Below are positions 51,799 to 64,000 of a DNA stretch of 64,000 nucleotides, piece after piece; the first letter of the stretch is position 1, and each line of letters opens with the position of its first letter. Position numbers and translations under genes: made by a program. Source of the stretch: a virus. The DNA is taken from IMG/VR virus record IMGVR_UViG_3300033802_000463, positions 1 through 64,000 of that record, one strand, 5' to 3'. Under the pieces are notes generated by a model. That model ran no database searches. It was given only the letters and a program-made list of their open reading frames with translations, and was not told where the DNA came from.

Positions 51799-52650
51799 TC
51801 AAAGGATCTCAATATGTGATGGAACAATCAGTTCATCGTTAAATATGTCTTGATTTGTCAGCAGTGCCGGCTGGTCGTTCAAGTAAAATTTGAGTACACT
51901 GAAGTCAACGATCTTTGTATTTGCATTCATGATTTCTTGAACAAGATCATGGTAGATAAATCCTTGTCCTAATTCAAACTTGCCGAAATATTGATACAGG
52001 TTTGTTTTGACATCCAATCTCGCTTTGTCTTTTTCGGCTGTTGTCGCCGACTCGTGAAACACAAGCTGTATGCGCAGCTCAAGCGGAATTTGGTTTGGCA
52101 GCATGATAAGCGGCCGGATCCCGTACCCTTTGACCTTTTGCACCTCTTGCTCGACGCTTTCTTTCACCAAATTGGAGTCATAACCGTACTGCGGGATCAC
52201 AATGAAACTAAAACTTCCTGTCCCTTGTGTATATTCAGATCCAATCACATCAACGACACCTGGGACCGCGAGACATGCAATGCGAAGCGCATGATAATTG
52301 GCATTCGCCGCGGTGAGTACCCTCTGCGAAATCTCATAACGGTATGTCTCATCATCTAATGGAGCGGTTGTGGTTTCGCCGGTTTTTGCATCATAATGCG
52401 TTACATTGCGTCTTGGATAACTGAAGAGCGCCCCAATCAGATCCAGGTATTCGTCCGATGCTTTACTCAAGAATCCTGCATTCACAATCATTTCTCCGTA
52501 ATCATACAGCCTCGGGAACTCTGGGCCAATCGCTTCAACAATCGATCGAGCAATGGCGCCGGCGCGAAAATTGGTAATCGGAGTATGATCCTTCAAGTGC
52601 TGAAAGGCATCGGCCAGAATCTCATTAACAGATCGTTTTAATAATGGCAT
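51799..52650 (-). CDS. Baseplate J-like wedge protein
   Basis: TNF.AGAIARSIVEA, A.DEYLD.IG, DDETYRYEI, AVPGVVDV, GTGSF. Confidence 0.82.
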   Translation of the reverse strand: MPLLKRSVNEILADAFQHLKDHTPITNFRAGAIARSIVEAIGPEFPRLYDYGEMIVNAGFLSKASDEYLDLIGALFSYPRRNVTHYDAKTGETTTAPLDDETYRYEISQRVLTAANANYHALRIACLAVPGVVDVIGSEYTQGTGSFSFIVIPQYGYDSNLVKESVEQEVQKVKGYGIRPLIMLPNQIPLELRIQLVFHESATTAEKDKARLDVKTNLYQYFGKFELGQGFIYHDLVQEIMNANTKIVDFSVLKFYLNDQPALLTNQDIFNDELIVPSHIEIL

Positions 52651-52662
52651 GATCGCACCTCC

Positions 52663-53070
52663 TTAGAGGTTAAGATTATTTTTTACGACAATCGGCTTGT
52701 TTTCGCCGGCATTGAGAAAGGTATAGTAATCAATCTGATAAATATTCACAGGGACAGGCCGGATCTCAAGATCTTGCGGCTGGAAGCGGCCGTCATACGT
52801 TAAAGTCTCCATGATTTGGGCTACGCCTTTCATGGCCGTTTCCCGTGTGTTCGGCTCGCCCTCCAAAAGCTCCAGGTCTCCTCCGATTTTCGGATGGCTG
52901 CGCCAATCCGTCGTTTGAGTGCGGATACGATTATTCAGATCCTGGCGTGCCGATTCATATTCACCGGTAAGCCGAAAATCAACCAATCCTTCACCATCTG
53001 CGGGGCCGAGATCGAAATCTCCTTCTTTTTCTCCATAAAAAGCGATATCTGTTTCATCATACTTTGGCAT
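52663..53070 (-). CDS. Baseplate gp25/W-like protein
   Basis: Q....RIRT...DW..HP.IG.DL..L.G pattern; position before J. Confidence 0.65.
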   Translation of the reverse strand: MPKYDETDIAFYGEKEGDFDLGPADGEGLVDFRLTGEYESARQDLNNRIRTQTTDWRSHPKIGGDLELLEGEPNTRETAMKGVAQIMETLTYDGRFQPQDLEIRPVPVNIYQIDYYTFLNAGENKPIVVKNNLNL

Positions 53071-53416
53071 CACTTCCACCTCCGATCATATCCAAAACGG
53101 CTTTATAGTCATCATTTATTGGATCAAAAGGTTGCTTCTCAATGTCGTCAATAACTTGAAAGTTTTTGCAAACAAACTGAATGTTTGGCGCATAAACGGA
53201 GAACATCATACGGGACGGATCCATACGAAATCCGAGATGATAATAAGCAAATGCTTCAAGCACGCCGCTGTCCCGAGCTAAAAGTCCAGCTCCTGAAACC
53301 TTATTAATGAGTCCAATGTCATGCGTTTTCGCTTCATTTGATGCCCTCAGCATGTCATCAATGTTCTGCTCGATAGGAAACATGATGTTATTCAGCTGAT
53401 CCATCCATTTCGCCAT
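53057..53416 (-). CDS. Hypothetical baseplate-region protein
   Basis: RBS GGAGG before ATG 53416. Confidence 0.6.
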   Translation of the reverse strand: MAKWMDQLNNIMFPIEQNIDDMLRASNEAKTHDIGLINKVSGAGLLARDSGVLEAFAYYHLGFRMDPSRMMFSVYAPNIQFVCKNFQVIDDIEKQPFDPINDDYKAVLDMIGGGSDAKV

Positions 53417-53945: not shown

Positions 53946-56900
53946 TCATGTCGGGTAACTGATGTGAATGTGGTTGTAATGGTCGCTTCGGACAATGAAG
54001 GTCTTTCCTGGATATTTAGCTCGCATCCTGTTCAGGATATCGCTGTCGGCATGAATGATGCCGTCAAATCCAATCTGAGCTGCCAGGTCAATAATGGTTT
54101 CTACCATTTCTCGATCCGCGTTATTGACAAATCGAAGCTTTCCGGCAATGACTTGCATATCAGGCGTATCGATATCAAAGGCAAATCCCGTGTTATGCCA
54201 ACTCAACGAGCTGCCATCTTGTCTTCGATAGGTGGAAGTGATGAGCAGCTTCTTTCCTGTTCTTGCTGTGTACGCCAATCCCAGCTGCTGCAGCAAATCC
54301 GCTGTCGCTTTACGAATCAGCGGCGCCTGCATAATGGGTTGATAGAAGTTCACACTGGTTACAGTATTGGTGCTGACAAGTACGCTGCTTGCTTGCTGAG
54401 GTGTGAGCAAATATTTTCGTTTCCCTGCTTCGCTCCGATCCGTCGGCACTTCCGAATTGGTGATTACTTTCGAAACAGAAGGCATTTTGAAGTTCGGATC
54501 GTGCTTTGCGATTTGAGCCATGATGTTGGCGATTTTCTTATGCCATTGCTTGTCGCTTGCATACTTGACATTCATGCCGACAAGTGTTGGGCCATTGTAA
54601 TATTTTCCGCCAGGCGTCAAATAATTTTCTTTGATTTTGTTCGCTGCATAGTAGATGCAATCTTGAACGGAAGCAAATCGATACGCGCTGTTATACGGAT
54701 CGCGATCGTAGGCTCCATAACCAAACAGGTTATTTTTATCCTTGAAGATCCGCGAAGTCCCCCATCCTGTTTCTAACGCCGCATGAGCAGCCAAGTACAG
54801 ACCATTCATGACATTCTCTCCGTTTGCACTTCCTTCAATCATCAACGGAGATGGCGGAGATGGGATAGAAATTTCAACTTGCTTAAAGTATTTTCCAAGG
54901 CCGGCAAGCCCAGTTCCCTGGAATGCAGCATCAATCGCTTCCGCAGAAATGCCGCTAGGTTTGTTCAAATCCATATTTTCAAAGCTATTTCCAACAACGC
55001 CATACCCACTGCCATTATTTATGGCCTCTGTCAACTCTTCACCGGTGATCAATGAGCGGCGTTCTTCGTATATGGGTTTTCGTGCGGCATCCTTTTCCTG
55101 ACGTTCCAGATGTCCCTTCCATTGCCTTCGAGCTTCTTCAACTTCGAAATTGTAGATTCGAATTGCTTCAGGATCTGGGATCACCTTGTAGCGATGCTTT
55201 TCAAAAAAGCTTGCAGCCAGTTTTGAAAAGTCAATGGGACTGTTGTTATTGTTTTGCATGAGCATATCACCTTCATTGGTGATCGGCGCATATTGCGTCG
55301 TATCCGCGCCCAGGAAGCCGGCAAGAATAGCTCCCACTACATTGTTGGTTAATACGCGCTGCCAGAAGTCTGGTGAGTCACCAATGACAGATCCCATATG
55401 TCCATTGATCCCTGCAGAAAACTCCATTCCATCTTTTCGAAGAACGGCGATGATGCAAGCCTTTCTTGTAAACAAGAACCGCTCAATTAATTCGCTAATC
55501 GAAGCGCAGACGATTTCAACAATCGCAGTTTCGATCAGGAAGGCGGCAATACCTACGGGTCCGCCAAATATCGCCAGAGCACCGCTTGCGGCTTGCCAAC
55601 CGCGTCTTCCCCATTTTGCTGCCTTGGCAGTAACTTTGAAGCCGCGGTTCATGAAATTGCTCGCGCCAACCTTTAACTTTGCCAACTTGGCAGGGTCAAT
55701 TTTATGATAACCCATAAAACGTTTATCGTACAAAGTTTTATCCAAGTTATCAAATAGGGCGATGATATCTTTTTCTGAGAAATTCTCGATTTTAGAAGCA
55801 ATATCCTTCAATATTCCGCTTTTTGTCCAGCGATTCTTCATTTCGTTCGTAACAGGATCGTAACGCCTTACTTCTTTGGATATTGGGTCGATTTCAATGC
55901 GTCCGCCCTTTGTATCGATGGTTCGCGTTTGTTTGAGCTCTTTTCCGGCGCTTTGACTCCATTCTTTGATAATGGAACCGACCTTTGTGGCATTAAACTT
56001 GCCTAACAGAGCATCATATCTGCGTTTAACGACCGCCCAAATCGCATTCATGATTGGGAATGCGCCTTTGTATCCCATGTTTCGCAGCACTGCGCGCAGT
56101 GTATATGACAAGATCATGTATGTGGCTACATGCATCAAGCTTTGAAGCATGGTCATGACGTGACGATCGTAATTAACCACTACGGCGTCCGGCTTAATCA
56201 TCGTAATGAATCCTGTTTCAAAGTTGAACAAATGATTGACTTCCCGCACTTCAATCGGACCATTCATGTTATGGAATGTGTCTTGGAAGTAGCAAATATC
56301 GTGCGGCTTCACAGAAGGATCGCCGGTAACGGTCAGATAGCCGTCATACATTTGTTTTACAAAATCTCTGAGCCCCGCAGCAGCAATTTTAATGGCAACT
56401 TTCTCATCGAAGTACCACTTTGGAAGCTTGTTTAAGAAATGACCGACAAGCGGAATATGCTCGATCAATCGGATGCCTTGTGCGTTTAGCTGCGTATCGA
56501 TCTGCACAGTTCGCTGAAGCTCCGGCCAAATATTCGTATCCACGTAAATGCCTTCTGTTGTATCCAGATTGCCTTCGTTGCTGTAAACACCAACGGCTAC
56601 CGTGTACATGTTTTCAGTTGTGGCAATGATTTGATTCTCCAAAATCGATGTCCAGCTATCATAAATATGATACTGTCTAAACGGTTTGGAGAGCGTTACA
56701 AAATCGTAATGAGATGATTTTGCATCTTGCAAGCCATTGCCTCCGATAGCTTGGTATCCGTATGCAAGTGGAAAGTATGGCTTGCCCATAAATATGGTGT
56801 TTCGGAAATCGAAAGGATGAACAGCCAAAATAAAGTCTTCGCCGATCGCCGCACATACGCTGAGGACATCCCATACGGTTTTATCATACAGATTGATATT

Positions 56901-59900
56901 GATTCCTACTTCGTCGCCTTCCCCAATGCCAAAGAAGTTGCCAAGCTTGTTCCAAAAGCTGTTGGCTTCATCTCGAAGCAAGCCGGTTGTCTTATAAATG
57001 TTTTGTGTGATTTCATTTCGCTGCCGGTCTTCAAAAGCACCATTGAAATTGATCGCATTATGATTGATTGGCGGGCCCGGCATGCCAAAATGCATGATCC
57101 CCAAAGAGTGCTGCTGATAATCGGCATTGCTCCATGCTTTGGAGAGATCGGACCAGAAACCGGTATGATCAGTCAGGATCTCATCAATGATTTCCGTTGG
57201 TTCTTTTTTGCTGAAGACCCATCCGCGCGTAGTATCGCCAGGCGATGCTTTTAACTTGTTGGTAAGCTCAATACCGTCATCCTGACAGATGACCGTAATT
57301 GTTTCTCCGTTATTCTGCAGCTGCGTAATGACGCCATTCATGATGGTTGGCATATTGGCCGCGTTTGAACCATATCCCATCCGGAAGTGAACTCTGGCGC
57401 CAGTGCGCAAATAAATCGAATTGTACCAGTTCGGATTGCGTCCGCGGCGCGATTTCTCAATCTCACGAGCCAGAGATGAAGGATTGAACATTAATTGTAC
57501 AATGTCCCATCCGTTGGTATTTGTAAGATCCATGCTTTTCATAGCATCATCCAAGTTGCCGAATACATTGGACATCTCCAATACAAGGGTGCTCGAAGCC
57601 GTCTTTCTGCTGTTTGTATACATAATGTCGGTGACCGCCCGATAATTAAAGTAATTATCGGACATCTTTGTGGCCGCCACATACTGCCCTTCGTCAACAA
57701 ACAGAAGCAAGAAAGTCGGAAACGCCCGCACAAGTCGGCCGCGGCGGTCATACTTGCGCATATCATGGAAGCTTTCCCGAAAGATCTTGTCAAAATCTCG
57801 GTATTCCTTCTCTGTCAGCTGCGAGTCCGTGAAAGTCGGCGTATCACTGTTCATGTTGATCGTCTTGTAATCCGGAACTGGAAGCTTGCTGTATTTTTGC
57901 GCAATCTGCACGTCCGTCCACTTGTCGATCTTATCAACCTCATTGAGCACGGATTTGATGATCTGCGAAACAAGATACGGCATCTTCTTGTTGCTGTTTA
58001 AGAGCAAATTGTATTCCCGCTCATAACCGAGGTACATCGAGATTGCGCCGACCCAAATGGCTTTTTGTTTTTGCTCCGGCTTTAGATCAAAAGCAGTAAA
58101 TACGTAATCATTGACCAGGTTTGCGCCTTGTACGATATCAAGATAATGCTGCATCAACTTGCAGCCTTGTTCCACATTGTATTCGATGTTTCGCGCCAGG
58201 CTATTCGGATCACCCATGAGCGGACTTACGCGCATCACGCCGATATAGGATGCATTCCGAAGGAAGTTGGCATCCCTAAAGTAACGCATGTCTTGCATCT
58301 GCATGACAGGTATTCCAATCTCTGTAACTTCGATTCCTCCAAGCTCTTTGTTGGCGCCCGGACCCACTTCATAAAATTGACGGAGCTTGGGGTCAAAAGC
58401 TCTGGCCAATGCTAACATGAGAGCTTGATCCACTCTGGGAGCCGTAAGATCCGATTGTTCATTGGACACATCTTGTGCTTTTTTCCGGATCAAGGTCTCC
58501 ATGTCCTGAACAGACAAGTTGGCCACATCGACCGATTGAGGAACCGGTGTGGCGACAACAGGATTCTGTTGCTGCTGTTTGATTTCTTCGATATTATCGA
58601 GAACTTGCTGATCCGGATTTATGGATCCCGGAATAACCGTAGCCTTTCCATTCATCGAATCGCGCCACTCTGATGGAAGGGTAGAGTTTTCGGACAGATA
58701 GCGATCAAGCTCACTGCCAAAGTCTATCGGATCATCGTAGATGAGGAAAAAGTCCGGATCCACATATTCTCCATCATTCAAGTTTGGAATCTCAAACCCC
58801 GCTTCCCTGACTTCTTTATAAGTAGGAAGCTCTAAATCCGGATAGAGTTCAATCATAGACATAAGCTCTTTGATTTTTGATTCATAGATGGCGCGCTTTT
58901 GCCAATCCTGGTCGCTCATGAAATCAGCCAAACCAGCAAAGAAATCGGCATTGCGAATGAAAGGCTTGTCAAAAATATCCCACCATTGGTAGTTGCTGAG
59001 CTCAAACGGAATCGTCTTGTTGTTGGCCTTATCATAAAGCATTTGCACTTCTTCAAGGCGCTTGGCGGCTCGGTTAAATGCAGAGAGCGTCAGCGTGATT
59101 TCATGTACGCCTGGCATCCCTTCTACAGTCGTGGAAACCATATCTTCTACGACTACATACGTGCAGCCGAATAAACGTGTCAATTGATGATCGAACTGGA
59201 TGAATCCATTGGACAAGACTTGATGATACTCCCGATTCAGATATGTAGAGCGGCGAACCAAATTCTCCAGACTGGCAAGAGCTTCCGGATCATCCGTTCT
59301 GAAGCGGGCAATATACACTGCATCTTGGGAGCCCAAATATTGATGTGTTGGCGACTCATGGGCCTGCAGCTGGACTGACGTGATAATGTTTTGGTAGCCG
59401 ACGCTCAACTCTTCGAGTACAAGCCCCGGGATATCCCAGTTATCCATCCGGAACTCATAAGTTTGAAGCAGTTTGTAAATATCATCGGCGTACATGCTGT
59501 CGATTTCTTCATCGAACATAATTTGCTTCCATTCGTCAATCCAACCGGTTGGGATGCCGTCTTCATCTTTGCCGGCAGGACGCGGCACCGGAAAGATGCC
59601 GCCTATCCACATCCAGTCTTCTTCATCAAGTCCTGGCTTATCCTTTTTGTCATTGATCCATTTTTTAATGAGCGTGTTGCGCTTCTCGCGCCACTTCTTC
59701 ATCATTTGCAAATCTTCTTCGGCCACAATGCGAAACATGAAATCGTTATGCAGTTCAATTTGCAGCGGCTCGTAGAACAAGATGTTGCGTTTGGGATTTG
59801 GCTCCAGGCTGCGGCGATAATACCATCGGAACAATGGCCAGTTAAACATCTCCTCGAAGCTTCGCTCTGATTGATCAAAAATGTAAGAGAAGGGATTAAA

Positions 59901-60308
59901 AGCATACATCTGCAGCTGAACCATAAGGCAGTGCGGGAATCCTTTAATCGTCTGCACAGAGATGCCGGCGATCGTTACCGCCTCAATTTGATACGTATCA
60001 TTGAGCAGTTTATTGGATATCGGCAGAAATGGACATTTTCGCACTTGTGCGAGCAATGGCCGCAATTCATTATTAATGCTTTGCATGTTTGGGAAAAACA
60101 AATTGAGCTCAATAATATGATCAAAATATCCGGACGATTTCACCATGCTGCTTCGGCTGCGCAGCATGTTGATTTTTTCATTTTTCATCCGTTTGGTTAC
60201 GGTTATCGCGGTTGGCGGTATATAGAATTGAGAGTCTCCAATTCGCAAATGATGATCACGCAACGCCCCGTACAGGGCGTCGCGATCATCATATCCAAGA
60301 GTAGGCAT
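53946..60308 (-). CDS. 2,120-aa tail hub-like protein with virion-associated lysins (SLT-like, GH73 glucosaminidase, M15-like peptidase)
   Basis: [10 protein letters not shown]...[11 protein letters not shown]...YASD; ITSTYR...WHNTGFAFD...HYNHIH; [14 protein letters not shown] and GDPSVKPHD hub-like motifs. Confidence 0.82.
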
Positions 60309-60320
60309 GGATTATCACTC

Positions 60321-63300
60321 CTAAGAGTATTGCTCAACTTTATCCCGATACCAAATCCGACTCAAATGGGCTGTATTGTCTGAATGATTCACGTTCATTT
60401 GCACTTTGCCGTTGTACCCGGATTGCTGCAGGGCTTGACCGATCATCGGACCAAAATTTTGAGACCCTTTTCCTTGAGCCGAAATGGTGATATTCGCTCC
60501 CGAAAATCCAGCGTCAATCGGCGTAATTGCAGGCATTGGCGTTCCGCCATACATCATCGATGCGTGCGCACGCGCCTGCTCTGCAGATTGGTAATCTGAA
60601 TTGTAAGGCATTACAGGCTCACTATCGTTAAGAGTATTGTACCCTATAATACCTGCAAGCGCTAGACCTCCAATAAGAGCAGCTTTCTTATTCCTTGGAC
60701 CATTTGGACCATTGAAGAATGCATCGAGTGATTGCGAGACTTTATTGTATGTTTTTGGTCCAAGCATTCCACCTGTTCCATCTTCAATGATTTCAGCAAT
60801 GGTGCCGGCCGGTCCCTCCAGCCGCTTGGCCATCATGGAATCCAATCCAGGTTCAAGCGGACTGACCTTTCGATATTCCGGCGTAATATCCATGGGCTCC
60901 GGATATTGAATATCAAGTCCCGCTTCTTCTCGAAGCAGTCGCTGCAAAAGCCCCATGTATTGATTGGTGCCTGTCATATCTGGATTCTTACCCATGATGG
61001 TATCGACAATCTTGGTTAATCCATGATCTGATAGCCTCATGCCGCGGCTTGTTCCCGCGCGAAGCTCGACATTCTTGAAGTCTTCCTTCATGCGCTTCAT
61101 GGCTTCTTGAAGATGGCCGGCAGCCATTTCCAAGTCATATTCTTTGGCAAAACGACCTTCAAAAAGCCGTTTGTCTATGTCGATTGCTTCCTTCCAGTTC
61201 CCATAACGAATAGCTTCCAGCAATTCCGAAGCACCGGATCGTGCCATGAGGACTTGACCAGTACCGTGTTTCGAGGAAATCGTGAGTTTCTGTTCTAAGC
61301 CCTCCCCGAGATTAAAGATCGCTTGTCTTGCCGCCTCATTGTCCGCATAGTAGTGGTTGGCAATTTGACGCATCATGTAGTTCAAGTCTGATGCTTGCCC
61401 AACCAACTCTTTACCGGATTTCGCAAGCATTTCATCAATTTGATTTGGAGCAATGGCCTCAATTCTTCCGGATTCGCCGGCTAAATCACGCAATCCGAAT
61501 CTGCGCTCTTTTTCTCCATCCACTGCTTTTTTCATGAATCCTTCGATATAATCAGATGGATATTCTTCGCTATTTGCCAGCGCGCGCTGATATGCCGCTT
61601 CGTGCCGTTGGCGCCGAGCATATTCTTCTGCTTTATATCGTTGCTCCAATTCTTCTTGAACTTTTTCATCATGTATCGCAAGCAGCTGATTGTAGTCGCC
61701 ATCCGAGTCAGCTGCAAGGAATTTGGCCAGAAGCGAAGTTACATGATGTTGCCCGGTGGCTACATTCTCGCTTACTTTCAGCCTGGCTACTTGTACAGCC
61801 TTATCTGTGAAAGTCGGATATCGCACATCGACCACATAGAAATCTTTTCCATTCACAATGTGATCGTAGACGCCAAGAGCCCTTGCTTCATCCGGAGAGA
61901 TAAAGACATGTTCGCCTCCGAGTTGACTTGATATCGATGTCGGCAAAACCTTCGTGAGACCCGATGAGGAGAATGGCATATTCGTCTTAAATACACTTTC
62001 TCCTGTTTGTCCTTTGGAAGCTGTCACATGCTTTACCAAACCTTCGACATAGCTGTTTACCGATCTCTGAAGCCTTTCCATGGCTCGCTGACGTTCGATA
62101 TCTGTGCCGGCCTTTCCAACCTCTGCTGCACGCCGATAAATATCAGCAATATGTTGCTGCATTTCACGCTTCCAGATCTCGTTCCCCTTTCCCTCATTTT
62201 TCATGAAGGGAACAAAGATGCGATTGATCTGTCTTCCATCCACATTGACCGTTAGCGGCGTTTTTTGACCACTGATTTCAGCATGCGGCAATTCCAGCCA
62301 GTATCCATGGTAATCGTTATCCTCGACCAGGCTTCGCAGATAGTCGTCATCCAGGATGGTGCCATAGATGGTCGCTCGGTTTGTATCTGTGGTCGGAAGC
62401 GGCAAGAGATCTCCCAATCGCACAGTCCGTTTTTCAAAATCCGGATCGACAGCTTGTTCTCCGTAGACAAGTCCGCGCAATGCATGCACCATGCTGATTG
62501 CTTCCTGGGCCCGGCCGGTTTCTCTGGCAGAAGTCTTCATGTGATTCCAGATATAATCAAATGTGTGATTATACCCTTTTTGTTTGAGCATTCCAAGTTC
62601 TCGGAACCCATACTTGACACCTTTTACTTCACCTTCGTTATACACGATGTTGACCATTCTGCCATCATCACTAATATCATAATTCAAGATGGCTTTTCGT
62701 TTTCCATCAACCATGGTGGAGTAGGTTTGAACTTGTGCTGCACGCATTGCCTGAATGCCCCATACAACGCCCTGTTCGGATGTCTCTGAAATGCCGAGCT
62801 GTTCAAACAGCTTGTAGAAATTCTCGACATTGATGGACCTGTATTTGTTTACCTTTGTGACATCAAGAAGTTCAACAGTTCCATCGGCGTTGATTGTGGC
62901 CTTCAAACCCACTCTTCCTCTGTTGATCATGGCCACGGCTCTTTTCTTGTCTTCTTCGCTCATCTGATCGACATAATATTTCAGCTTGTTTGCTTGCGCG
63001 CGCAAAGCGCCGCCAAAGTCTCTGTGTTTGGCAATATCAGGATTGTAAACCGCCCCGATGCCCTCTACACCAGTGAGCTCCTCCAAAAAGCGCTGGCCAT
63101 AGCCGAACTCTCCGTTCAATTGCCCGCCTCCGATGGTTGTTTTCTCAATATCGAAGGTGAATTTATTGGCCTGCTCTTTGTATTCAATGGCAAATGCATT
63201 GTCGCTCATTTCTGATGCGATTCGTCCGACGTGCCTCTGATCGTAGAACACATCTTCCCGGCGGCCGTCAATAATCCGGTATCCAAGTCGCTCACCCGGC

Positions 63301-64000
63301 AAAATGTCAATATTTGTCCGGAGATTTCCATCCGCGTCGATGAATTTTTCATCCCAATAAATCTCGTCTCCTCGGTAAATTTTGTAGTTCTTCATCTTGA
63401 AGCGATTGACGAGATCCCTGTTCATCAGCGCTTGCTGCTCATAAACATTGGGATAGCGGACCGGATTGATATTGCCGCTGACATCAATAATGCCTTCGGA
63501 TCGAAGAATGCGGCGTCCTTCTTCTGTTTCCATCATTCGCTGAATGGCCTCATCGACTTGAGCCTGACTCATGAGAGCCGTTTTAACATGCACTTCCCTC
63601 TTATACGGAAGCACTTGATCCAGTCGATCTTGTAATTTGGTTTTCACCATTGGCTCGGTACTGATCCAGGCTGACGACTCGTTCAGTATATTTTCGAGAT
63701 CACGATCGATCGCATAAGAGTTCATAATCTGAACGGCATTATCCCGGCCCATATTGGTGAAATGACCATATGGGATCAAATCCCGGGCATCCATTCGGCT
63801 GGCACCGCCATCAATTACCACATCACTTTTGACTGCAGAATAAAACAGATTACCGATGCCGTTTGCTTTCGCCCACTGAGGCAGATCTTTACGAATCATG
63901 AACCGCGCTTCATCGCTTAAATCTTCGAGTGACACGAATGGATGAAGTTTCTTTTTATCCGCATTCAAAATAACCTCTTTGTTATAGAAGTCATCATCGG
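60321..64000 (-). CDS. C-terminal part of a giant protein at the tape-measure position containing a single-chain two-barrel RNA polymerase (5' end outside the window)
   Basis: Frame is open to 64000; RYP...AADSDGD (61695-61709) plus colinear beta/beta'-like motifs; hydrophobic segment near the C-terminus. Confidence 0.8.
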   Translation of the reverse strand, partial: DDDFYNKEVILNADKKKLHPFVSLEDLSDEARFMIRKDLPQWAKANGIGNLFYSAVKSDVVIDGGASRMDARDLIPYGHFTNMGRDNAVQIMNSYAIDRDLENILNESSAWISTEPMVKTKLQDRLDQVLPYKREVHVKTALMSQAQVDEAIQRMMETEEGRRILRSEGIIDVSGNINPVRYPNVYEQQALMNRDLVNRFKMKNYKIYRGDEIYWDEKFIDADGNLRTNIDILPGERLGYRIIDGRREDVFYDQRHVGRIASEMSDNAFAIEYKEQANKFTFDIEKTTIGGGQLNGEFGYGQRFLEELTGVEGIGAVYNPDIAKHRDFGGALRAQANKLKYYVDQMSEEDKKRAVAMINRGRVGLKATINADGTVELLDVTKVNKYRSINVENFYKLFEQLGISETSEQGVVWGIQAMRAAQVQTYSTMVDGKRKAILNYDISDDGRMVNIVYNEGEVKGVKYGFRELGMLKQKGYNHTFDYIWNHMKTSARETGRAQEAISMVHALRGLVYGEQAVDPDFEKRTVRLGDLLPLPTTDTNRATIYGTILDDDYLRSLVEDNDYHGYWLELPHAEISGQKTPLTVNVDGRQINRIFVPFMKNEGKGNEIWKREMQQHIADIYRRAAEVGKAGTDIERQRAMERLQRSVNSYVEGLVKHVTASKGQTGESVFKTNMPFSSSGLTKVLPTSISSQLGGEHVFISPDEARALGVYDHIVNGKDFYVVDVRYPTFTDKAVQVARLKVSENVATGQHHVTSLLAKFLAADSDGDYNQLLAIHDEKVQEELEQRYKAEEYARRQRHEAAYQRALANSEEYPSDYIEGFMKKAVDGEKERRFGLRDLAGESGRIEAIAPNQIDEMLAKSGKELVGQASDLNYMMRQIANHYYADNEAARQAIFNLGEGLEQKLTISSKHGTGQVLMARSGASELLEAIRYGNWKEAIDIDKRLFEGRFAKEYDLEMAAGHLQEAMKRMKEDFKNVELRAGTSRGMRLSDHGLTKIVDTIMGKNPDMTGTNQYMGLLQRLLREEAGLDIQYPEPMDITPEYRKVSPLEPGLDSMMAKRLEGPAGTIAEIIEDGTGGMLGPKTYNKVSQSLDAFFNGPNGPRNKKAALIGGLALAGIIGYNTLNDSEPVMPYNSDYQSAEQARAHASMMYGGTPMPAITPIDAGFSGANITISAQGKGSQNFGPMIGQALQQSGYNGKVQMNVNHSDNTAHLSRIWYRDKVEQYS

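What the first reader, a model, noticed from the sequence alone, without database searches (positions are those of the whole stretch)
60321..64000. Single-chain multisubunit-type RNA polymerase inside a tape-measure-position virion protein
Seen in the sequence: one ORF, open past the window end, carries these motifs in order, with the E. coli counterpart recalled from memory. ANKFTFDIEKT (~63132-63170; beta GDKMAGRHGNKG twin lysines). VYNPDIAKHRDFG (~63012-63050; beta VLNPLGVPSRMNIG). GVKYGFRELGML (~62586-62621; beta GQRFGEMEVWAL). LQRSVNSY (beta' LQEAVDAL). SKGQTGESVFKTNMPFSSS (beta' GKQGRFRQNLLGKRVDYSG). VRYPT (61815-61823; beta' NRAPT). AADSDGD (61695-61709; NADFDGD). LGEGLEQKLTISSKHG (~61263-61310; trigger loop IGEPGTQLTMRTFH). 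The gene sits directly upstream of the hub/lysin and baseplate genes and ends in a hydrophobic Gly/Ala segment. Known: single-chain two-barrel RNAPs exist (SPbeta YonO, crAss-like virion RNAP), and a tape-measure-fused virion RNAP was described in Thermus phage P23-45. Inference: this is a virion RNAP stored in the tail and injected with the DNA, here in a Bacillales contractile-tailed lineage. Annotation would probably call it hypothetical.
Basis: partly seen in the sequence, partly recalled or inferred. Interest (0 to 1): 0.92.

Follow-up and report, generated by a model that had tools for sequence, protein, structure and literature searches.

The report
Exonuclease-RNA polymerase giant phage tail-module protein
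A 2330-residue protein encoded between the tail-assembly and baseplate genes of a large contractile-tailed Bacillales phage contains a hidden one-chain relative of the cell's RNA polymerase plus a DNA/RNA-trimming exonuclease, and is probably carried in the particle and injected to start the phage's own transcription.

Summary
The ORF runs past the window end and is 2330 aa in full.

No sequence method finds an RNA polymerase. An AlphaFold model of residues 1200-2160 (pLDDT 86.4, pTM 0.85) does:
- Both halves together match QDE-1 and P23-45 gp96.
- DxDGD, RxP and two lysines are invariant in 39 of 39 homologues.

Residues 120-408 are an intact DEDDh exonuclease.

The gene lies between the tail chaperones plus a 1969-aa protein and the hub. 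Only its last ~140 residues match 0305phi8-36 gp146, which that record annotates as a virion protein by mass spectrometry.

Not shown: virion delivery, storage in the tail, or a tape-measure role. Both models are compact.

The phage also encodes a YonO-like polymerase.

The scan has reported this kind of gene in at least 35 other genomes. None resembles this one by sequence.

Verdict: a new variant of a known kind.

The parts
60321..64000 (-). C-terminal 1225 codons plus stop of a 2330-aa ORF. In the parent record, which uses the same numbering, the full ORF is 60321..67313. The part beyond the window holds a DEDDh exonuclease (residues ~120-408 = 66090-66956) and about 800 residues of compact domains of unknown fold.
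62532..63716 (-). Module like the second-largest RNAP subunit (beta/Rpb2-like): residues 1200-1594, model 1-395.
63432..63443 (-). YEQQ, residues 1291-1294. E1292 is invariant. It is a candidate for the acidic residue of the beta-type barrel; this is inference.
   Evidence: residue equivalence not tested
63138..63170 (-). ANKFTFDIEKT. K1384 and K1391 are invariant and are the candidate twin lysines of the beta-type barrel.
60936..62468 (-). Module like the largest RNAP subunit (beta'/Rpb1-like): residues 1616-2126, model 417-927.
61635..61973 (-). Beta'-type double-psi beta-barrel, residues 1781-1893. It contains RYPT (61812-61826) and the metal-binding loop DSDGD (61695-61709).
61263..61424 (-). 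Two conserved helical motifs after the barrel: AKSGKELVGQASDLNYMMRQIA (1964-1985) and LGEGLEQKLTISSKHG (2002-2017). They are candidate bridge-helix-like and trigger-loop-like elements. That pairing rests on recalled motifs only.
   Evidence: Invariant G1972, Q2008 and K2015; H2016 conserved in at least 90%. The stretch lies inside the range aligned to largest subunits. Not tested residue by residue.
60324..60755 (-). C-terminal module, residues 2187-2330: a Gly/Ala hydrophobic segment (2211-2225 = 60639-60683) plus a conserved terminal domain. It is shared with the otherwise unrelated protein at the same position in 0305phi8-36 (gp146) and in Moorella phage MTATph1 (CDS0031).
   Evidence: hhalign probability 83.5%, E 8.4e-6, 134 columns; HMM E 2.5e-8 to MTATph1 CDS0031
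53946..60308 (-). Next gene downstream: a 2120-aa baseplate hub with a glucosaminidase domain.

Best explanation
The 2330-aa product is a multi-enzyme virion protein of a phage related to Bacillus phage 0305phi8-36, a contractile-tailed jumbo phage of Bacillales. From N- to C-terminus it has four parts:
1. An intact DEDDh 3'-5' exonuclease (about residues 120-408).
2. About 800 residues of compact domains of unknown fold.
3. A single-chain two-barrel RNA polymerase (about residues 1200-2130). It has a beta-like barrel with two invariant lysines, followed by a beta'-like barrel with the RxP and DxDGD motifs.
4. A ~140-residue C-terminal module with a short hydrophobic Gly/Ala segment.

Shown here: the folds, the strict conservation of the catalytic residues, and the gene's position between the tail chaperones and the hub.

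Inferred:
- The C-terminal module brings the protein into the particle. It is the only part shared with 0305phi8-36 gp146, which that record annotates as identified in virions by mass spectrometry.
- The protein leaves through the tail at infection. A folded polymerase cannot pass the tube, so it would travel unfolded or extended.
- It refolds and transcribes the first genes to enter, without host RNA polymerase.
- A second, YonO-like polymerase encoded in the right arm takes over later. This is the two-polymerase scheme shown by experiment for Thermus phage P23-45.

Open questions: whether the protein is kept in the tail lumen or the head, and whether it or the neighbouring 1969-aa protein sets tail length.
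For: - Fold: the model of residues 1200-2160 has pLDDT 86.4 and pTM 0.85.
- Foldseek against the PDB gives at least 500 chains at E<=0.001, and every row shown is an RNA polymerase entry, mostly bacterial D/J chains.
- Catalytic residues are invariant in 39 of 39 homologues at 24-52% identity.
- Seven of the eight residues that PMC2919709 (passages read) lists as invariant in all two-barrel RNAPs have invariant counterparts: the three Asp, R-x-P and two Lys.
- hhalign against E. coli beta' puts RYPTFH on NRAPTLH and ADSDGD on NADFDGD.
- A natural control exists. The 1780-aa homologue on a 145-kb B. thuringiensis plasmid keeps the N- and C-terminal parts. It lacks the stretch of the family profile that holds the beta-like barrel. 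At the catalytic positions it reads HYHHT, DSKSYY and DAKRG. Conservation elsewhere therefore reflects selection on catalysis.
- Virion context: the gene order is sheath, tube paralogues, two chaperone-like genes, the 1969-aa gene, this gene, hub, baseplate.
- The same order is seen in 0305phi8-36, where the record annotates gp145 and gp146 as virion proteins by mass spectrometry.
- The C-terminal 134 columns are shared with gp146.
- Homologues in isolates KLEB27-3 and WH1 are annotated as structural or virion structural proteins.
- A separate YonO-like gene is present (PF05183, 36.1 bits against a cut-off of 23.8).
Against: - No sequence method links the protein to any RNA polymerase. Pfam gave 0 families. 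PHROGs gave only a weak exonuclease hit. PDB phmmer and profile searches gave no polymerase of this kind.
- hhalign against E. coli beta' gave E 0.13 and probability 0.5%. Against beta it gave nothing sensible. Against the phage's own YonO-like protein it gave E 0.12 over 18 columns.
- The two invariant lysines are 7 residues apart. In Rpb2 they are 8 apart (K979/K987, PMC2919709).
- I had no model coordinates. Spatial clustering of the catalytic residues and residue-level equivalence were therefore not checked.
- There is no proteomic evidence for this protein or its true homologues that I could read. No paper on KLEB27-3, WH1 or MTATph1 is in the library.
- The gp146 that the 0305phi8-36 record annotates as detected by mass spectrometry has no D-x-D-x-D motif at all. 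It shares only the C-terminal module.
- The catalytic module is lost in the ~140-kb plasmid copies, so the protein's structural role does not need it.
- The YonO-like enzyme could in principle serve all phage-specific transcription.
- Both models are compact (pTM 0.85 and 0.74). That does not fit a classical extended tape measure.
Confidence: 0.72

Rival explanations
1. The protein is a late-expressed enzyme that is not packaged. It would transcribe late genes or make primers inside the infected cell, and it sits in the tail operon only by gene order.
For: There is no direct proteomic evidence for this protein. The phage's other polymerase shows that polymerases here need not be virion proteins. 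The models are compact and globular.
Against: The C-terminal module is shared with a protein annotated as identified in virions. The position between chaperones and hub holds in 8 loci examined (and this one). Homologues are annotated as structural in two isolates. The 145-kb plasmid copy keeps the protein after losing catalysis, which argues for a structural or assembly role.
Confidence: 0.1
2. The protein is a true tail tape measure or tail-lumen structural protein. Its polymerase-like core would be an exapted fold, for example a DNA conduit or DNA grip, with no RNA synthesis.
For: The gene lies in the tape-measure slot. In the 145-kb B. thuringiensis plasmid element it is the only giant gene between the chaperones and the hub, and it has no catalytic residues there. 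0305phi8-36 gp146 was assigned as tape measure from tail length (PMC2147016, passage read).
Against: The metal-binding triad, RxP, both lysines and the SSKHG-type motif are invariant in 39 of 39 sequences at 24-52% identity. They decay together in the one lineage that lost the beta-like barrel. That pattern is expected for an active enzyme. Residues 1-2160 are predicted to be compact, not rod-like.
Confidence: 0.08
3. The protein is an injected polymerase whose main job is not mRNA synthesis. It could prime replication, copy RNA as QDE-1 does, or work with the exonuclease on repair or processing of genome ends.
Against: The experimentally studied virion-borne two-barrel enzyme that I read about, P23-45 gp96, transcribes pre-early genes (PMC10770324). 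Phage-specific hairpin elements lie upstream of right-arm genes, where promoters would be. Nothing here tests template preference.
Confidence: 0.08

Closest known systems
Thermus phage P23-45 gp96: tape measure protein with a fused virion two-barrel RNA polymerase (Chaban et al. 2024, PMC10770324; PDB 8h2m/8h2n)
   Different: - P23-45 has a non-contractile tail and infects Thermus. This lineage is contractile-tailed and infects Bacillales.
- In gp96 the polymerase is N-terminal (DFDGD at 779-783) and is followed by about 3900 residues with membrane and metallopeptidase domains.
- Here the polymerase lies in the C-terminal half, an exonuclease is N-terminal, and only about 170 residues follow the polymerase.
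- No sequence homology was detected.
- Activity and virion presence are shown for gp96 and not here.
Catalytic core of multisubunit RNA polymerases (bacterial beta/beta', Rpb2/Rpb1, ASFV and vaccinia enzymes, phiKZ and AR9 phage enzymes)
   Different: This is one chain of about 950 residues, against more than 2400 residues in two subunits. There is no sequence-level similarity. I did not test whether the flap, clamp or other accessory domains are present.
YonO / QDE-1 clade (Pfam PF05183), including 0305phi8-36 gp99 and this phage's own 1143-aa gene
   Different: The PF05183 model does not match this protein, although it matches the phage's other gene. Profile comparison between the two is not significant. 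Gene context also differs: tail module here, early right arm there.
crAss-like phage virion RNA polymerase (phi14:2 gp66) and N4 virion RNA polymerase
   Same: Both are polymerases embedded in proteins of about 2200-3500 residues that are packaged and ejected. This is as cited in PMC10770324 section 13; the details are recalled.
   Different: These phages are short-tailed. The N4 enzyme is T7-like, not two-barrel. The crAss enzyme did not appear among the 50 rows shown by VIA-align, so its similarity to this protein is untested.
DnaQ/RNase T-type DEDDh exonucleases (Pol III epsilon, ExoI, TREX1/2)
   Different: Here the domain is fused in one chain to a two-barrel RNA polymerase within a phage tail-module protein. 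I found no description of such a fusion in print.

Membership tests
Two-barrel (double-psi beta-barrel) RNA polymerase superfamily | Two DPBB-containing modules, one beta/Rpb2-type and one beta'/Rpb1-type, forming one core | tested here: met
Two-barrel (double-psi beta-barrel) RNA polymerase superfamily | Metal-binding D-x-D-x-D loop in the beta'-type barrel | tested here: met
   D1869, D1871, G1872 and D1873 are invariant in 39 of 39. The loop aligns to NADFDGD of E. coli beta'.
Two-barrel (double-psi beta-barrel) RNA polymerase superfamily | Invariant Arg-x-Pro before the metal loop (Rpb1 R446/P448, PMC2919709) | tested here: met
   R1831 and P1833 are invariant in 39 of 39. They align to NRAPTLH.
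Two-barrel (double-psi beta-barrel) RNA polymerase superfamily | Two invariant lysines and an acidic residue in the beta-type barrel (Rpb2 K979, K987, D837) | tested here: inconclusive
   K1384 and K1391 are invariant but 7 residues apart, not 8. E1292 is an invariant acidic candidate. Structural equivalence of these residues could not be checked because no coordinates were available.
Two-barrel (double-psi beta-barrel) RNA polymerase superfamily | Template-dependent RNA synthesis | not testable with these tools
   Needs an in vitro assay.
Tape-measure-fused virion RNAP (P23-45 gp96 type) | Polymerase fused to a long tape-measure region with membrane and peptidase domains | tested here: not met
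   Only about 170 residues follow the polymerase. They contain one 15-residue hydrophobic segment and no peptidase. Pfam finds nothing. Residues 1-2160 are predicted to be compact.
Tape-measure-fused virion RNAP (P23-45 gp96 type) | Presence in virions and transcription of pre-early genes | not testable with these tools
   Only indirect evidence: annotations of homologues and a C-terminal module shared with gp146, which its record annotates as detected by mass spectrometry.
Tape-measure-fused virion RNAP (P23-45 gp96 type) | Homology to gp96 | tested here: inconclusive
YonO/RdRP family (Pfam PF05183) | Match to the family model above its cut-off | tested here: not met
   Pfam gave 0 families at E<=1 for the window part and at E<=0.1 for the full protein. 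The same model scores 36.1 bits on the phage's other gene.
Tail tape measure protein | Gene between the tail assembly chaperones and the baseplate hub | tested here: met
   The slot is shared with a 1969-aa gene that is conserved in all relatives.
Tail tape measure protein | Extended, mostly helical rod whose length sets tail length | tested here: not met
   Two models covering residues 1-2160 are compact multi-domain folds with many strands (pTM 0.74 and 0.85). The correlation with tail length is not testable here.
DEDDh (DnaQ-like) 3'-5' exonuclease | RNase H-like exonuclease fold with Exo I D-x-E, Exo II D and Exo III H-x4-D | tested here: met

The most novel reading that the evidence does not exclude
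The chain works as an exonuclease-licensed transcription starter. After ejection, the DEDDh exonuclease resects the 3'-ended strand at the genome end that enters first. For the plus-strand right-arm genes that strand is the coding strand, so resection leaves their template strand single-stranded. The ten covarying 5-bp-stem TGAC hairpins upstream of right-arm genes then fold. They act as promoters for the factor-less two-barrel polymerase in the same polypeptide. Transcription helps draw the 200-kb genome into the cell.

This would be a new way to initiate transcription. It would combine the hairpin-promoter logic of phage N4 and the single-strand preference reported for the crAss enzyme (both recalled) with a built-in nuclease.
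Probability: 0.1. Interest if true: 0.92.

Novelty: new variant of a known kind. Interest (0 to 1): 0.72.

Why it matters
A virion RNA polymerase fused to a tail protein has been shown by experiment in one Thermus siphovirus (PMC10770324). This finding extends the idea in several ways.

- **A new setting.** The lineage is contractile-tailed jumbo phages and ~200-260-kb phage-like plasmids of Bacillus, Paenibacillus and Oceanobacillus. The polymerase family has no detectable sequence link to any known polymerase.
- **A new fusion.** An intact exonuclease is fused to the polymerase. I did not find this combination in print.
- **A reannotation of the slot.** 0305phi8-36 gp146 was assigned as a tape measure from tail length. 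The position instead appears to hold interchangeable cargo attached to a common ~140-residue C-terminal module.
- **It is directly testable.** Three cultured phages carry homologues: KLEB27-3, WH1 and Edson. A natural copy without the catalytic residues exists on ~140-kb B. cereus-group plasmids. Candidate hairpin promoters are at hand.
- **A general question.** It bears on how large folded enzymes pass through a phage tail.

Tried and rejected
**Sequence-level tests that gave nothing for the polymerase part**
- Pfam on the window part and on the full protein: 0 families.
- PHROGs: 0 families for the window part. The full protein gave only phrog_255 exonuclease at E 0.002.
- PDB phmmer: 2 chance-level rows at E 0.15 and 0.63.
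- PDB profile search with A1: 41 rows at E<=10. Most are exonuclease domains of family-B DNA polymerases, and none is an RNA polymerase.
- tblastn of the full protein against 50,697 phage records: no match at 1e-5. A profile and the KLEB27-3 homologue later found 3 records.
- BLASTP against 0305phi8-36 gp146 and MTATph1 CDS0027: nothing significant.
- hhalign of the family profile was not significant against the phage's YonO-like protein, E. coli beta' or E. coli beta. Only the beta' alignment fell on the expected motifs.

**Searches for related loci and folds**
- The search for related loci in viral contigs found no relative.
- The ESM Atlas gave no usable hit for the 1969-aa neighbour.
- Foldseek on the N-terminal model gave no match at E<=0.001. 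The exonuclease rows had probability 1.0 at E 0.006-0.08.
- The crAss-like enzyme was not among the 50 rows VIA-align showed. This says nothing about relatedness.
- Residues ~410-1199 remain without an assigned fold. The searches were dominated by the exonuclease domain.

**Readings I rejected**
- A classical tape measure: the models are compact.
- Membership of PF05183.
- The idea that 0305phi8-36 gp146 carries the same polymerase: it has no D-x-D-x-D motif and no profile hit outside the C-terminal module.

**Limits on what I could see**
Supplementary Data 3 and 4 of PMC10770324 hold alignments of 23 polymerase families and a survey of viral genomes with two polymerases. They may already list this family, and I could not see them.
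- My statement that the family is not described in print rests on searches of the held library only.

Full report
**The sequence**

The window is bases 1-64000 of a 136,063-bp linear virus record that CheckV rates 69% complete. On the minus strand a frame is open from 60321 to the window end. In the full record it is a 2330-codon ORF, 60321..67313. The hydrophobic Gly/Ala segment (residues 2211-2225) is the most hydrophobic 15-mer of the protein. It lies about 105 residues before the C-terminus.

**Setting**

Read in the direction of transcription, the neighbourhood is as follows.

| Position | Product | Evidence |
|---|---|---|
| 76717-79515 | tail sheath | phrog_16991, 7.8e-187 |
| 74546-76620 | three tube-position paralogues | |
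| 73239-74565 | two chaperone-like paralogues | |
| 67314-73223 | 1969-aa protein | |
| 60321-67313 | the 2330-aa protein | |
| 53946-60308 | 2120-aa hub with a glucosaminidase domain | |
| 51799-53079 | baseplate genes | |

The hub links the phage to Moorella phage MTATph1 and to Bacillus phages KLEB27-3, WH1, Edson and 0305phi8-36. In 0305phi8-36 the same order reads chaperonins gp143/144, gp145, gp146 ('hypothetical tape measure protein') and hub gp147. The record annotates gp145 and gp146 as virion proteins by mass spectrometry. [quoted passage not shown]

**What sequence methods see**

Sequence methods find no polymerase. Pfam, PHROGs and PDB searches with the sequence or a family profile are all negative for that part.

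The family is small. In the word-indexed search, 20 proteins reached E<=0.001 among 8000 candidates scored. In the exhaustive HMMER search, 38 of 1.84 billion representatives did. Of those 38, 29 are 1873-2729 aa and 9 are short pieces of 115-432 aa. No stand-alone polymerase relative appeared.

They are E1292, K1384, E1390, K1391, T1393, K1429, R1571, E1572, R1831, P1833, D1869, D1871, G1872, D1873, Q2008 and K2015.

**Structure of the polymerase part**

AlphaFold2 on residues 1200-2160 with that alignment gave pLDDT 86.4 and pTM 0.85.

- Foldseek against the PDB returned at least 500 chains at E<=0.001. Every row shown is an RNA polymerase entry, mostly bacterial D/J chains, for example 7mko_D with 254 columns and rmsd 3.6.
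- VIA-align against 48,161 representative chains split the model cleanly.
- Isolated DPBB domains match residues 582-694, which hold RYPT and DSDGD.

An hhalign run of the family profile against E. coli beta' was not significant (E 0.13). Its single reported alignment places RYPTFH on NRAPTLH and ADSDGD on NADFDGD. The same test against beta gave nothing useful.

PMC2919709 (passages read) lists eight residues as invariant in all two-barrel polymerases. Seven have invariant counterparts here. The lysines are 7 residues apart rather than 8, and the eighth residue (an Asp in Rpb2) has only a candidate, E1292. I had no coordinates, so I could not verify active-site geometry.

**The rest of the chain**

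The last ~140 residues, which include the hydrophobic segment, are the only part shared with 0305phi8-36 gp146 (hhalign probability 83.5%, E 8.4e-6, 134 columns). They also match MTATph1 CDS0031 (HMM E 2.5e-8). This agrees with the 2007 remark that only the last 60 residues align between orf146 and its BtI1/BwK1 counterpart (PMC2147016, passage read). gp146 has no D-x-D-x-D motif and no other profile match. The slot therefore seems to hold different bodies on a common C-terminal module. The upstream 1969-aa protein, by contrast, is conserved in all relatives (BLASTP 1e-112 to 1e-153).

**Distribution and a natural control**

Homologues with an intact D-x-DGD loop occur in the following records.

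| Record | Loop |
|---|---|
| KLEB27-3 gp034 | DYDGD |
| WH1 gp095 | DHDGD |
| 194.7-kb Oceanobacillus profundus contig | DSDGD |
| B. thuringiensis plasmid record, 259.7 kb | DSDGD |
| B. licheniformis plasmid record, 205 kb | DSDGD |
| Paenibacillus rhizovicinus plasmid record, 228.8 kb | DADGD |

- Each of these lies in the same three-giant-gene arrangement. The one variation is KLEB27-3, where the upstream protein is split in two.
- Edson also carries a homologue, found by tblastn only; I did not read its loop.
- In the collections searched, 3 of 50,697 phage records and 10 of 72,556 plasmid records hold a homologue.
- One homologue differs: the 1780-aa copy on a 145-kb B. thuringiensis plasmid (98% identical on B. 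cereus G9842).
  - It keeps the N-terminal ~1040 residues and the C-terminal module.
  - It lacks the stretch of the family profile that holds the beta-like barrel.
  - It reads HYHHT for RYPTF, DSKSYY for DSDGDY and DAKRG for SSKHG.
- Catalytic residues thus decay together in the lineage that lost the beta-like barrel. This argues that they are under selection for catalysis elsewhere. It also shows that the protein has a role that does not need the polymerase.

**A second polymerase and candidate promoters**

The record also encodes a 1143-aa YonO/RdRP-family protein at 111109-114540 on the plus strand (PF05183, 36.1 bits against a cut-off of 23.8). This is the counterpart of 0305phi8-36 gp99 (PMC2147016 and PMC7824862, passages read).

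I followed a lead from earlier scan notes. There are ten perfect 5-bp stems closed on TGAC, TGAT or TGTC loops, all on the plus strand and all between 115759 and 132945. Nine of the ten are followed by TTC after 2-3 bases (CTC in the copy at 129385). Most lie in intergenic gaps, some 30-70 bases upstream of a ribosome-binding site. By my own arithmetic about 0.8 such hairpins would be expected by chance in both strands of the record. They may be promoters for one of the two phage polymerases. Nothing here says which.

**Reading**

The most likely explanation is a virion-carried, ejected exonuclease-polymerase that starts phage transcription before the YonO-like enzyme is made. This parallels the two-polymerase scheme shown for P23-45 (PMC10770324: abstract and sections 6, 12 and 13 read).

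- Shown: folds, conserved catalytic residues, gene position, shared C-terminal module.
- Inferred: packaging, ejection, refolding and template choice.
- Against a classical tape-measure role: both models are compact, and only about 170 residues follow the polymerase.
- Which of the two giant proteins measures the tail is open. In the 145-kb plasmid element the homologue is the only giant gene between the chaperones and the hub, which keeps the tape-measure reading alive.

**Novelty**

- Fusion of a two-barrel virion polymerase to a tail protein is known from P23-45.
- Packaged giant polymerases are also known from crAss-like and N4-like phages (PMC10770324 section 13).
- The review of jumbo phages lists only the YonO-like enzyme for 0305phi8-36 (PMC7824862, passage read).
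- Six library searches found no description of this family or of an exonuclease-polymerase fusion. The closed supplements of PMC10770324 might list it.
- BFVD holds similar predicted folds in giant proteins of other phages. These include an unnamed entry (E 6.2e-20), a 'minor tail protein' of an uncultured siphovirus (7.4e-19), Acinetobacter phage ME3 (4.3e-11) and Microcystis phage MaMV-DC (3.5e-9).
- The scan itself has reported polymerases in the myovirus tape-measure slot in at least 35 other genomes. None shares short words with this one. The kind therefore recurs, while this family, with its exonuclease, is distinct.
- I rate it a new variant of a known kind.

Noticed in passing
parent record G000:C1 115759-132945, + strand (beyond the window): There are ten perfect 5-bp stems with TGAC, TGAT or TGTC loops, all on one strand within 17 kb. 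Stem sequences covary. Nine are followed by TTC after 2-3 bases (CTC at 129385). Most lie in intergenic gaps upstream of right-arm genes, some 30-70 bases before a ribosome-binding site. They are candidate hairpin promoters or 5' RNA elements. By my arithmetic about 0.8 would be expected by chance (lead from earlier notes e1-6142076 and e1-6142061).
   Followed up: partly
parent record G000:C1 111109-114540, + strand (L005:160-3591): A second, unrelated single-chain polymerase gene of 1143 aa from the YonO/RdRP family (PF05183, 36.1 bits). The profile comparison with the tail-module polymerase is not significant.
   Followed up: partly
L011:9704-15046 (B. thuringiensis lyx16 plasmid p1); also NC_011774.1 and NZ_CP132202.1: A 1780-aa homologue on ~140-kb B. 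cereus-group plasmids. It keeps the exonuclease-bearing N-terminal ~1040 residues and the C-terminal module. It lacks the stretch of the family profile that holds the beta-like barrel and has none of the beta'-type catalytic residues. The 1969-aa neighbour is reduced there to a 295-aa ORF.
   Followed up: partly
L003:7772-15128 (Moorella phage MTATph1): The gene at the same position is interrupted by an annotated transposase gene. The first piece (1309 aa) carries an RNase_T exonuclease domain at 962-1065 and no polymerase motif. The last piece (313 aa) carries the shared C-terminal module.
   Followed up: partly
parent record 67314-73223, - strand (L002:14315-20000, cut): The 1969-aa upstream protein has an N-terminal hydrophobic segment (residues 40-58). 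By eye it also has a Gly-rich hydrophobic stretch towards the C-terminal quarter. It is conserved with 0305phi8-36 gp145, a virion protein by that record's annotation. Pfam and PHROGs give no hit on the part searched. It may be the real tape measure or a second ejected protein.
   Followed up: partly
parent record 74546-76620, - strand (L008:1547-3621): Three consecutive paralogous genes just after the sheath gene match phrog_9206, which is labelled 'major head protein'. Their position suggests tail tube proteins and a mislabelled family.
   Followed up: no
plasmid records NZ_CP021670.1, NZ_CP048288.1, NZ_CP097261.1 and others: Several ~200-260-kb 'plasmids' of Bacillus and Paenibacillus carry this phage's tail module, including the polymerase gene. 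Two of the three I opened are recorded as linear. They look like jumbo phage genomes kept or sequenced as plasmids.
   Followed up: partly
BFVD entries A0A172Q021, A0A075BUT7, A0A8S5SD80: Giant uncharacterised or 'minor tail' proteins have predicted folds similar to this polymerase (E 4.3e-11, 3.5e-9 and 7.4e-19). They come from Acinetobacter phage ME3, Microcystis phage MaMV-DC and an uncultured siphovirus. The kind may therefore be widespread beyond Bacillales.
   Followed up: no
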